The notes under the pieces: model-generated
Told to the model about the DNA's origin: nothing
What the model saw: only the letters and a program-made list of their open reading frames with translations
Database searches by the model: none
Source: a virus
Taxonomy: Duplodnaviria > Heunggongvirae > Uroviricota > Caudoviricetes
DNA: 62,425 nt
Strand: one strand, 5' to 3'
Virus record (IMG/VR): IMGVR_UViG_2877269240_000007
In this document: positions 25,480-26,107 of the stretch, piece by piece
How positions within the stretch are numbered: position 1 is the stretch's first letter
Layout: each line of letters opens with the position of its first letter
Made by a program: the position numbers and the translations under genes

Positions 25480-25788
25480 TTAAACGAAGCGGATCTGGAG
25501 TTTTTTTCCAGTAGCGCGGGCGAATTTTTTTAGTGTGGCAAATGATGGGCCGCTGATACCTGATGCGAGATTACTTTCCATTCTGGTGATCGCGGTCGCT
25601 TTTGTTCCCATTCGCTCGGCAACTTCAGCCTGAGTTAAGCCAGCTTCTTTGCGTGCTGCCAGCATTTCATCAAGCAGTGCGAATTCGTCAGCGATAGCGT
25701 CGTATTCTGCTTTAAAAGCCGGGTCTTCCATCCATTTGGCTGCCATTTCGTCGTGTGTCATGGTGGGGAGAGTGCGTTTACCAGTCAT
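25480..25788 (-). CDS. XRE-family HTH antitoxin (HigA-like)
   Basis: 102 aa with HTH (...GLTQAEVAERMGTKATAITRMES...); start overlaps toxin stop (ATGA-type overlap). Confidence 0.75.
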   Translation of the reverse strand: MTGKRTLPTMTHDEMAAKWMEDPAFKAEYDAIADEFALLDEMLAARKEAGLTQAEVAERMGTKATAITRMESNLASGISGPSFATLKKFARATGKKLQIRFV

Positions 25789-26107
25789 GCTTAACCTCCT
25801 TCATTCTGGTTTCAGCTTTCTTGCGTTCGGCTGGCGGTGTTTTCTGCGCTTTCTTTACAAAACTATGCAGCATGATGATGCGTTTCCCTGTCAGAGTGCA
25901 GTAAAAAACACGCGCGATCCCATCGTTGCCTTTAATTCTGAGTTCGAAAAGCCCGTCACCAAAGGCGCTGGTGTGAGGTTCTCCGAGATTGCTGCCGTAT
26001 ACCTTCATGCGTTCAACAAGATGCTGGTATCTGGCACGCATACTCAATGGAAGCTGATCGACCTCCAGTCGGACCTCTTCACTGTAGTATTCGATAGTGT
26101 AGTTCAT
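25778..26107 (-). CDS. RelE/ParE-superfamily toxin (Gp49/HigB-like)
   Basis: 109 aa; C-terminal ...IIMLHSFVKKAQKTPPAERKKAETRMKE typical of Gp49-like toxins; upstream of XRE antitoxin. Confidence 0.75.
   Translation of the reverse strand: MNYTIEYYSEEVRLEVDQLPLSMRARYQHLVERMKVYGSNLGEPHTSAFGDGLFELRIKGNDGIARVFYCTLTGKRIIMLHSFVKKAQKTPPAERKKAETRMKEVKHDW

What the first reader, a model, noticed from the sequence alone, without database searches (positions are those of the whole stretch)
25480..26107. RelE/ParE-type toxin and XRE antitoxin pair placed divergently against the antirepressor promoter
A Gp49/HigB-like toxin (109 aa) and an HTH-XRE antitoxin (102 aa) overlap by an ATGA-type junction and are transcribed away from the antirepressor leader promoter, so the two control regions share about 40 bp (26108-26146). 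The pair sits between ninE and the antirepressor module, an unusual spot inside a nin/replication region. Antitoxin autoregulation could influence the adjacent riboregulator promoter.
Basis: partly seen in the sequence, partly recalled or inferred. Interest (0 to 1): 0.5.

Follow-up and report, generated by a model that had tools for sequence, protein, structure and literature searches.

The report
Prophage toxin-antitoxin pair beside antirepressor promoter
This is an intact, ordinary toxin-antitoxin gene pair of the known Gp49/HigB1 type, carried by a decaying lambda-like prophage; it has its own compact promoter that sits next to, but shares nothing with, the neighbouring antirepressor promoter.

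Summary
The toxin ORF (25778-26107, minus strand, 109 aa) matches Pfam Gp49 at E 3e-25. The antitoxin ORF (25480-25788, minus strand, 102 aa) is an XRE helix-turn-helix protein. They overlap by 11 nt, not by a 4-nt ATGA junction.

The best solved-structure match for both proteins is the same entry, the S. pneumoniae HigB-HigA complex. The toxin model has a RelE-type fold, and its K85 aligns with the lysine replaced in the M. tuberculosis HigB1 K95A mutant. Both genes are under strong purifying selection.

The 40 bp upstream of the toxin ATG are not shared control DNA. They hold the pair's own promoter with a palindromic operator, and the -10 lies 7 nt from the ATG, so the toxin mRNA is probably leaderless. 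The antitoxin has a strong ribosome-binding site inside the toxin gene. This design recurs in about 70 distant relatives.

The isrK/C4 antirepressor promoter starts 4 bp further on. It also occurs in phages that lack the pair.

All 50 enterobacterial lambdoid loci carrying this toxin place it against an antirepressor riboregulator. A crossover inside the toxin gene explains its position after ninE. The antirepressor here carries a nonsense mutation.

Verdict: a known kind of system, of modest interest.

The parts
25778..26107 (-). Toxin gene, 109 aa, Gp49 / Tad / HigB1-type RelE-superfamily toxin
   Evidence: Pfam PF05973 E 3.2e-25. PHROG 2523 covered 1-108 of 108. AlphaFold2 pLDDT 92, and the best Foldseek PDB hits are HigB 6af3/6af4 and Mtb HigB1 7awk with TM 0.80. 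K85 aligns with Mtb HigB1 K95. All family-invariant residues are present.
25480..25788 (-). Antitoxin gene, 102 aa: helical N-terminal part (1-40) and XRE helix-turn-helix (44-98)
   Evidence: HTH_3 E 3.4e-11. PHROG 1373. Best PDB match is HigA 6af3_B, the partner chain of the toxin's best match. 667 homologues, several on contigs of the same length and organism as toxin homologues.
25778..25788 (-). 11-nt overlap of toxin stop and antitoxin start (ATGACTGGTAA)
   Evidence: Read from the sequence. Overlaps of 4 to 26 nt occur across the family, 14 nt being the most common.
25794..25801 (-). Shine-Dalgarno AAGGAGGT for the antitoxin, inside toxin codons K-E-V
   Evidence: Read from the sequence. 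72 of 73 relatives have a run of at least 5 nt complementary to the anti-SD at this place, while 71 of 73 toxin starts have none.
26116..26135 (.). Palindromic operator ACATAAC-AAAATC-GTTATAT, the presumed antitoxin binding site
   Evidence: Conserved in all 20 intergenic variants from 50 lambdoid loci. Present as TAACATATTTGTTA in 64 distant genomes. It occurs once in the window.
26115..26120 (-). Putative -10 (TATGTT) of the toxin-antitoxin promoter, 7 nt before the toxin ATG, implying a leaderless mRNA
   Evidence: Family consensus is TTG, 17 nt, TAttAT, 6-7 nt, ATG/GTG; T, A and final T are invariant or nearly so in 64 loci. No SD precedes the toxin start. This is an inference; the transcription start has not been mapped.
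26138..26143 (-). Putative -35 (TTGTGC) of the toxin-antitoxin promoter
   Evidence: TTG is conserved 17 nt upstream of the -10 in 48-54 of 64 distant loci and in every lambdoid variant.
25452..25472 (.). GC-rich hairpin at the 3' end of the cassette, which is also the left limit of cassette homology
   Evidence: Inverted repeat of 9 nt arms. The centroid hairpin alone is -16.6 kcal/mol; the 71-nt stretch folds with z -2.5. Homology with pair-bearing phages of other contexts starts at 25452. It has no U-tract and was not called as a terminator.
25850..25955 (.). Recombination crossover interval inside the toxin gene
   Evidence: No mismatches to the ninE-type loci (L013/L017) over 25440-25848. 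No mismatches to the replication-region type (L009) over 25956-26182, and 99% identity on to 27300.
26148..26176 (+). Neighbour, not part of the cassette: the isrK / antirepressor promoter (TTGATT, 17 nt, TACACT), followed by isrK 26183-26259, C4 26284-26371 and the Rha antirepressor ORF 26426-26989 with TAG at 26477-26479
   Evidence: Rfam isrK 58 bits and C4 75 bits. Promoter geometry read from the sequence. The same segment occurs in phages without the pair. The nonsense codon is shown.

Best explanation
The two genes form a self-contained type II toxin-antitoxin cassette of about 690 bp (25452 to about 26143), of the Gp49 / Tad-Ata / HigB1 family.

Inferred from homology: the toxin is a RelE-fold, ribosome-dependent mRNA endonuclease. 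The antitoxin neutralises it through its N-terminal helical part and represses the operon through its XRE domain.

Shown as a conserved sequence feature, with binding inferred: the operator is a palindrome (ACATAAC-N6-GTTATAT) in the spacer and -10 of the cassette's own promoter.

Inferred: the -10 lies 7 nt from the toxin ATG and there is no ribosome-binding site, so the mRNA is probably leaderless and the toxin poorly translated. The antitoxin has a perfect AAGGAGGT site embedded in the toxin's last codons. This would give antitoxin excess despite the toxin-first order.

The cassette is transcribed against the phage's early-right operon, like a lysogen-expressed accessory gene. It most probably stabilises the prophage (addiction, as shown for N15 gp49/gp48), excludes other phages, or does both.

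The cassette abuts the isrK/C4 antirepressor promoter back to back: the -35 elements are 4 bp apart and the start points about 76 bp apart. No sequence element is shared. The position after ninE comes from a homologous crossover inside the toxin gene. That crossover joined a nin region to the antirepressor-replication region of another lambdoid phage.
For: Family and fold:
- Pfam Gp49 E 3e-25 and HTH_3 E 3e-11.
- The best PDB sequence match for both proteins is the same HigB-HigA complex, 6af3.
- AlphaFold2 pLDDT 92; Foldseek hits HigB, HigB1, YafQ, RelE and YoeB.
- K85 aligns with Mtb HigB1 K95.
- 45% identity to N15 gp49.
- PF_gp49 toxins are described as ribosome-dependent mRNases with toxin-first order (PMC11980606). 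The Tad-Ata family, which includes N15 gp49, is described in PMC2701414.

The gene pair is real and maintained:
- More than 2292 toxin and 667 antitoxin homologues; several appear to lie on the same contigs, judged by matching contig length and organism.
- dN/dS is 0.02-0.15 for both genes. 47 of 50 loci have both genes intact.

Control region:
- The palindrome is conserved in all lambdoid variants and in 64 distant genomes, with TTG-17-TAnnnT geometry and 6-7 nt to the start codon.
- SD is absent at 71 of 73 toxin starts and present at 72 of 73 antitoxin starts.

Independence from the antirepressor promoter: phages without the pair share the promoter from about 26143, and operator-to-promoter spacing varies.

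Mosaic origin.
Against: Nothing has been tested experimentally for this clade: not toxicity, neutralisation, operator binding or the transcription start.

The generic promoter scan called neither promoter.

The antitoxin model is of low confidence (pLDDT 64), so the toxin-binding role of its N-terminal part rests on analogy.

GTG starts in many relatives are less favourable for leaderless translation in enterobacteria.

The strict co-occurrence with antirepressor leaders in 50 of 50 enteric loci is not explained by a purely independent cassette.

In a sister genome with the same arrangement the toxin is frameshifted (L056), and two loci have lost the toxin start codon. The pair is therefore dispensable in some hosts.
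Confidence: 0.85

Rival explanations
1. The cassette and the antirepressor operon are one regulatory unit. The antitoxin, or the toxin-antitoxin complex, bound at 26116-26135 (centred near -58 of the isrK promoter) would modulate isrK/C4/antirepressor transcription. The toxin-to-antitoxin ratio would then feed into prophage induction.
For: Every one of 50 enterobacterial lambdoid loci with this toxin (72-100% identity, about 20 intergenic variants) has an isrK/C4 or sRNA-Xcc1 antirepressor leader divergent from the toxin start. In most of them isrK begins about 76 nt from the ATG. The -35 elements are only 4 bp apart. Gp49-HTH pairs placed at regulatory promoters of Tn3 transposons are a precedent for such integration (PMC7157771).
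Against: The antirepressor promoter works from the same sequence in phages without the pair and with unrelated upstream DNA. Operator-to-(-35) spacing is 12, 14, 17 or 21 nt, so the face of the helix is not conserved. The operator is positioned for the cassette's own promoter and is conserved in 64 genomes that have no antirepressor neighbour. There is no second operator copy in the antirepressor region. In POCJ13-type phages two genes separate the pair from Ant.
Confidence: 0.1
2. The pair's main role is anti-phage defence by abortive infection rather than prophage addiction. An invading phage would trigger antitoxin loss, and the toxin would shut down translation.
For: Gp49-family HigB toxins in toxin-antitoxin-chaperone systems abort phage infection (PMC11980606). 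The toxin's C-terminal half matches a domain of the PADLOC candidate NsnC at E 5e-9. The prophage location and the orientation against the early operon fit a lysogen-expressed protective gene.
Against: There is no full PADLOC system match and no chaperone gene. The closest tested relatives (N15 gp49/gp48, Tad-Ata) were characterised as stabilisation systems.
Confidence: 0.3
3. The downstream gene is a phage transcription regulator (a repressor-like XRE protein) and the upstream gene is a non-toxic accessory protein. On this view the pair is not a toxin-antitoxin system.
For: PHROG and NCBIfam label the second protein only as a transcriptional regulator, with a weak RstR-repressor match.
Against: The toxin has a RelE fold with the conserved catalytic lysine. 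The two genes are tightly coupled, and homologues of both turn up across phyla, often in non-phage contexts. Both proteins have the same HigB-HigA complex as their best PDB match.
Confidence: 0.03

Closest known systems
N15 gp49 / gp48, and Tad-Ata of Paracoccus pAMI2 (Dziewit et al. 2007, cited in PMC2701414)
   Same: Same Pfam family (PF05973). 45% identity over residues 15-105. Toxin first, XRE antitoxin second. Phage-borne. Experimentally a stabilising toxin-antitoxin system.
   Different: N15 gp49 lacks the first 14 residues and has a conventional leader with a GGAGG ribosome-binding site. It has no TAAC-N6-GTTA palindrome and is not next to an antirepressor riboregulator.
Streptococcus pneumoniae HigB-HigA (PDB 6af3/6af4) and M. 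tuberculosis HigB1 (PDB 7awk, 7nbu)
   Same: Best sequence and fold matches. RelE-type fold. The lysine at the HigB1 K95 position is conserved as K85. The antitoxin HTH aligns with HigA.
   Different: Only 18-23% identity. HigB1 belongs to a three-gene system with a SecB-like chaperone, which is absent here.
Gp49-HTH_37 pairs in Tn3-family transposons (PMC7157771)
   Same: Same toxin family, placed immediately beside the regulatory promoters of a mobile element.
   Different: There the pair neighbours res sites and may use transposon promoters. Here the cassette has its own conserved promoter and operator.
paaR2-paaA2-parE2 in the cryptic lambdoid prophage CP-933P (PMC8630535)
   Same: A RelE/ParE-superfamily toxin-antitoxin system embedded in the early region of a decaying lambdoid prophage, proposed to limit rearrangements.
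   Different: A ParE toxin with antitoxin-first order and a third regulator gene wired into the cI/cro-like switch. No such wiring is evident here.
isrK-orf45-anrP of Gifsy-1 and C4/icd/ant of P1 (the neighbouring unit; PMC4825925)
   Same: The adjacent plus-strand unit matches Rfam isrK and C4 and encodes a Rha-type antirepressor.
   Different: In Gifsy-1 the upstream neighbour is antQ, not a toxin-antitoxin pair. Here the antirepressor carries a premature stop.

Membership tests
Gp49 / Tad-Ata / HigB1 type II toxin-antitoxin (Pfam PF05973 toxin + XRE antitoxin) | Toxin matches the family profile above the curated threshold | tested here: met
   88.4 bits against a cut-off of 23.9, covering profile positions 2-90 of 90.
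Gp49 / Tad-Ata / HigB1 type II toxin-antitoxin (Pfam PF05973 toxin + XRE antitoxin) | RelE/ParE (BECR) fold | tested here: met
   AlphaFold2 pLDDT 92. Foldseek hits to HigB 6af3/6af4, HigB1 7awk (TM 0.80), YafQ, RelE and YoeB.
Gp49 / Tad-Ata / HigB1 type II toxin-antitoxin (Pfam PF05973 toxin + XRE antitoxin) | Conserved active-site residues | tested here: met
   K85 aligns with the lysine replaced in the Mtb HigB1 K95A structures. H45, E55, R57, R66, H81, K86 and K89 are invariant in the family and present here. That K95A inactivates HigB1 is from memory, not checked here.
Gp49 / Tad-Ata / HigB1 type II toxin-antitoxin (Pfam PF05973 toxin + XRE antitoxin) | Toxin gene first, overlapping or adjacent HTH-XRE antitoxin gene | tested here: met
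   11-nt overlap. HTH_3 at E 3e-11. The same order holds in 73 relatives.
Gp49 / Tad-Ata / HigB1 type II toxin-antitoxin (Pfam PF05973 toxin + XRE antitoxin) | Palindromic operator in the operon's own promoter (autoregulation) | tested here: inconclusive
   A conserved palindrome overlaps the -10 and spacer in all relatives. Binding and repression cannot be tested with these tools.
Gp49 / Tad-Ata / HigB1 type II toxin-antitoxin (Pfam PF05973 toxin + XRE antitoxin) | Toxin arrests growth and the antitoxin rescues; ribosome-dependent mRNA cleavage | not testable with these tools
   Requires expression and cleavage assays.
Toxin-antitoxin-chaperone (TAC) HigB1-HigA1-SecB-like system | Third gene encoding a SecB-like chaperone downstream of the antitoxin | tested here: not met
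   The antitoxin stop at 25480 is followed by a hairpin and the convergent ninE gene.
HigB of plasmid Rts1 / Proteus (Pfam PF05015) and V. cholerae HigB-2 (PF06296) | Match to those toxin profiles | tested here: not met
   Only PF05973 is reported at E <= 0.01. Foldseek hits to P. vulgaris HigB and HigB2 are weak, E 0.05-0.16. The Pfam assignments of those toxins are given in PMC11980606.
Known anti-phage defence systems (PADLOC) | Full-length match to a system component | tested here: not met
   Only a partial match to the C-terminal domain of NsnC (residues 49-99, E 5e-9) and weak generic HTH hits.

The most novel reading that the evidence does not exclude
In enterobacterial lambdoid phages the toxin-antitoxin cassette and the isrK/C4 antirepressor operon may have become one composite accessory module, with two possible links. 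The repressor complex at about -58 of the isrK promoter, or polymerase competition between the two back-to-back promoters, could couple the toxin-to-antitoxin ratio to antirepressor expression and so to prophage induction cross-talk. Alternatively, the pair could serve as an addiction device that specifically protects the antirepressor locus from deletion.
Probability: 0.1. Interest if true: 0.55.

Novelty: new member of a known kind. Interest (0 to 1): 0.27.

Why it matters
The pair itself only adds a member to a large, already annotated family. Close relatives are labelled 'type II toxin-antitoxin system RelE/ParE family toxin' in public genomes.

Three by-products are more useful.

1. This 109-aa clade shows a family-wide design, conserved from Enterobacteria to Betaproteobacteria and Nitrospira. 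The promoter has a palindromic operator in its spacer, the -10 lies 6-7 nt from an SD-less toxin start, and a strong SD for the antitoxin sits inside the toxin gene. This offers a simple translational answer to how toxin-first systems keep antitoxin in excess. Other reverse-order systems use extra promoters for this (PMC7167474). It can be tested with one 5'-end mapping experiment.

2. The cassette acts as a homology patch at which lambdoid phages recombine. That explains an odd gene order in this prophage.

3. The strict pairing of this clade with antirepressor riboregulators in enteric phages is unexplained. It could be tested with simple reporter fusions.

Tried and rejected
- N15 as a precedent for linkage between the pair and an antirepressor. 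N15 gp49/gp48 lie between lysis/methylase genes and genes 47-41, with no C4/isrK nearby. Rejected.
- LexA box in 26108-26182. None found by reading the sequence.
- Generic sigma-70 and terminator scan of 25300-26600. It called neither the toxin-antitoxin promoter nor the isrK promoter. It found one minus-strand site inside C4 (26314-26285), at chance level, and the isrK terminator. No consensus-like internal promoter for the antitoxin was found in the toxin gene.
- The hairpin at 25452-25472 as an intrinsic terminator. The stem is stable, but there is no U-tract on either strand. Its role is left open.
- AlphaFold2 model of the antitoxin. pLDDT 64, too poor for a fold search.
- PADLOC. No system-level match.
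- Second operator copies elsewhere in the window. None; the 1-mismatch hit at 32786 is within chance expectation.
- Extension of the antirepressor association beyond enteric phages. Of 20 distant genomic loci, only Edwardsiella has a related RNA (sRNA-Xcc1).
- The Dziewit et al. 2007 paper could not be read.

Full report
**Observation.** The window holds two minus-strand ORFs. The first is 25778-26107 (109 aa, starting MNYTIEYY) and the second is 25480-25788 (102 aa).
- They overlap by 11 nt (ATGACTGGTAA), not by a 4-nt ATGA junction.
- To the left, on the plus strand, lie NinB (24855-25265) and NinE (25262-25438).
- To the right, Rfam finds isrK (26183-26259, 58 bits) and C4 (26284-26371, 75 bits), both above their gathering scores. 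A Rha-family ORF follows.

The described layout is therefore real.

**Identity of the two proteins.**
- The first protein matches Pfam Gp49 (PF05973) at E 3.2e-25 across the whole profile, and PHROG 2523 end to end.
- The second matches HTH_3 at E 3.4e-11.
- Against PDB sequences, both have their best match in one entry: the HigB (chain A) and HigA (chain B) complex 6af3.
- An AlphaFold2 model of the toxin, built from a 28-sequence alignment, has pLDDT 92. Foldseek places it with S. pneumoniae HigB and M. tuberculosis HigB1 (TM 0.80), then YafQ, RelE and YoeB.
- In a profile alignment, K85 falls on the residue replaced in the HigB1 K95A structures.
- The toxin is 45% identical to gp49 of phage N15, which gave the family its name. 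N15 gp49/gp48 and Tad-Ata are described as a toxin-antitoxin family in PMC2701414. The stabilising function shown by Dziewit et al. 2007 is taken from citations of that paper, which could not be read.
- PF_gp49 toxins are listed as ribosome-dependent mRNases with toxin-first order in PMC11980606.
- The clade is large: more than 2292 toxin and 667 antitoxin homologues, at 60-69% identity even in Betaproteobacteria. Several toxin and antitoxin homologues appear to lie on the same contigs, judged by matching contig length and organism.
- Comparisons with eight related loci give dN/dS of 0.02-0.15 for both genes. 47 of 50 viral loci have both genes intact.

**Control region.** I aligned the DNA upstream of the toxin start from 50 lambdoid loci, which gave about 20 distinct variants. 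One block is constant in all of them: AACATAAC-N6-GTTAT(G/A)T next to the start codon. Everything beyond it falls into at least three unrelated types.

The same architecture appears upstream of the toxin in 64 species-level genomes from other classes. The consensus is cTTG, then a 17-nt spacer that contains TAACATATTTGTTA, then TAttAT, then 6-7 nt, then ATG or GTG. The T, A and final T of the -10 are invariant or nearly so.

In the window the elements are:

| Element | Sequence (minus strand) | Coordinates |
|---|---|---|
| -35 | TTGTGC | 26143-26138 |
| Operator | ACATAAC-AAAATC-GTTATAT | 26116-26135 |
| -10 | TATGTT | 26120-26115 |
| Toxin start | ATG | 26107 |

With only 7 nt between the -10 and the ATG, and no ribosome-binding site, the transcript is most simply read as leaderless. 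71 of 73 relatives also lack an SD at the toxin start.

The antitoxin start is preceded by AAGGAGGT (25801-25794), inside the toxin codons for K-E-V. 72 of 73 relatives have an SD run of at least 5 nt there.

I infer weak toxin translation and strong antitoxin translation from one autoregulated transcript. This differs from the extra antitoxin promoters described for other toxin-first systems (PMC7167474). N15 gp49 does not share the design: it has a normal GGAGG leader and no such palindrome. The transcription start and the operator binding are inferences.

**Relation to the antirepressor promoter.**
- The isrK promoter reads TTGATT (26148-26153), 17 nt, TACACT (26171-26176), with isrK starting at 26183. 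This layout matches the isrK-orf45-anrP operon of Gifsy-1 (PMC4825925).
- The two -35 hexamers are 4 bp apart and the two start points about 76 bp apart, so the promoters are back to back.
- No element is shared. In phages without the pair (Stx2a phages, phiP27; 11 of the 16 phage records hit), the same promoter sequence begins at about 26143, and the upstream DNA is unrelated.
- Among pair-bearing phages, the gap between the operator and the antirepressor -35 is 12, 14, 17 or 21 nt.
- The operator occurs once in the window.

These points argue against a designed cross-regulation. They cannot exclude steric effects.

**Recurrence.**
- All 50 IMG/VR loci with a toxin of 72-100% identity carry an antirepressor-type riboregulator divergent from the toxin. 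It is isrK plus C4, isrK alone at the gathering threshold, or sRNA-Xcc1. The annotated prophages RMDEC465, TUM9812 and PhiR5_2 show the same arrangement.
- In POCJ13-type phages two genes intervene.
- N15-like phages and 19 of 20 distant genomic loci have no such RNA. Edwardsiella has sRNA-Xcc1.

The adjacency is thus a lineage feature of enteric lambdoid phages and not a property of the toxin-antitoxin family. Whether it reflects one ancestral join or selection is open.

**Why it sits after ninE.**
- Against loci of the NinE-pair type (L013, L017), the window has no mismatch from 25440 to 25848.
- Against loci of the pair-antirepressor-replication type (L009), it has none from 25956 to 26182, and 99% identity on to 27300.
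- A crossover inside the toxin gene (25850-25955) therefore joined a nin region to the early region of another lambdoid phage. In phages without the pair, that early region runs cI-cro-X-antirepressor-O-P.
- The resulting order is NinB-NinE-antitoxin-toxin-antirepressor-RepO-DnaC-DnaB-x-NinH-Q. It occurs with the identical toxin in at least 37 collection blocks, including one 4.51-Mb chromosome (CP084879.1) and many 5-10 kb contigs.
- The chimeric toxin keeps every conserved residue.

**State of the neighbourhood.**
- The antirepressor ORF (ATG 26426) has CAG changed to TAG at codon 18 (26477-26479). Only the window and L007 carry this change; five relatives keep glutamine.
- The window is full of IS3-family and other insertion sequences.
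- In the sister locus L056 the toxin is frameshifted. In L053 and L054 its start codon is ATA.

This is a decaying prophage in which the toxin-antitoxin pair is, for now, intact.

**Verdict.** The finding is a correct identification of a known kind of system. Its interpretation is right on family and orientation. It is wrong on the junction, on the supposed sharing of control DNA, and on the rarity of the location. The biological role (addiction versus exclusion) remains untested. Interest is modest. The most useful new points are the conserved, probably leaderless promoter-operator design of this clade, and the unexplained strict pairing with antirepressor riboregulators.

Noticed in passing
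window 26426-26989 (TAG at 26477-26479): The Rha-family antirepressor downstream of isrK/C4 carries a CAG-to-TAG nonsense mutation at codon 18. Only the window and L007 have it; L008, L056, L009, L011 and L003 keep glutamine. The antirepressor is a recent pseudogene while the toxin-antitoxin pair stays intact.
   Followed up: yes
window 25850-25955: The toxin gene is a recombinant. Its 3' part, the antitoxin and ninE are identical to one phage type (L013/L017). Its 5' part, isrK, C4, the antirepressor and the replication gene are identical to another (L009). The cassette served as the homology patch for a mosaic join.
   Followed up: yes
window 25649-26479 (+); L003 4527-5528; L147 5629-6087: A long ORF runs antisense through the toxin gene and across isrK and C4. 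In relatives it is annotated as the N-terminus of a 'Rha family' protein or as an 'ash family protein' (Pfam Phage_ASH). These calls probably translate RNA genes. The real antirepressor start is the ATG at 26426.
   Followed up: partly
L003 4737-5914; L009 2081-2925: Some relatives carry two tandem copies of the isrK-C4-Rha unit next to the toxin-antitoxin pair.
   Followed up: no
L001 6616-6699; L024 964-1047; L038-L041 about 2580-2670; L067 2086-2171: In several phages an RNA matching Rfam sRNA-Xcc1 occupies the place of C4 in the leader of an antirepressor gene. This suggests that it is a functional counterpart of C4.
   Followed up: no
L056 3001-3326; L053 and L054 toxin start: Examples of toxin-first decay. 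There is a frameshift in the toxin of a locus otherwise identical to the window, and ATG is changed to ATA at the toxin start in two loci, while the antitoxin remains intact.
   Followed up: partly
window 3013-6886, 16954-24277, 34453-37815: Many repeated insertion-sequence ORFs are present (three copies each of the 279-, 263- and 272-aa ORFs; relatives are annotated IS600, IS911 and IS3). No complete E. coli genome matches the pair at 100%. The identical toxin occurs on a 4.51-Mb chromosome and on many short contigs. This pattern is typical of a Shigella-like, IS-laden genome, but the organism was not identified.
   Followed up: partly
window 26314-26285 (-): A promoter-like site (TTGCGA, 18 nt, CATAAT) lies antisense inside the C4 gene and points toward the toxin-antitoxin pair. 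It is the only site called in the region and is within chance expectation.
   Followed up: no
L068 2059-2137; L072 1584-1797: In two distant genomes a c-di-GMP-I riboswitch and a HEARO RNA lie within 1 kb upstream of the toxin homologue. This is probably coincidental.
   Followed up: no
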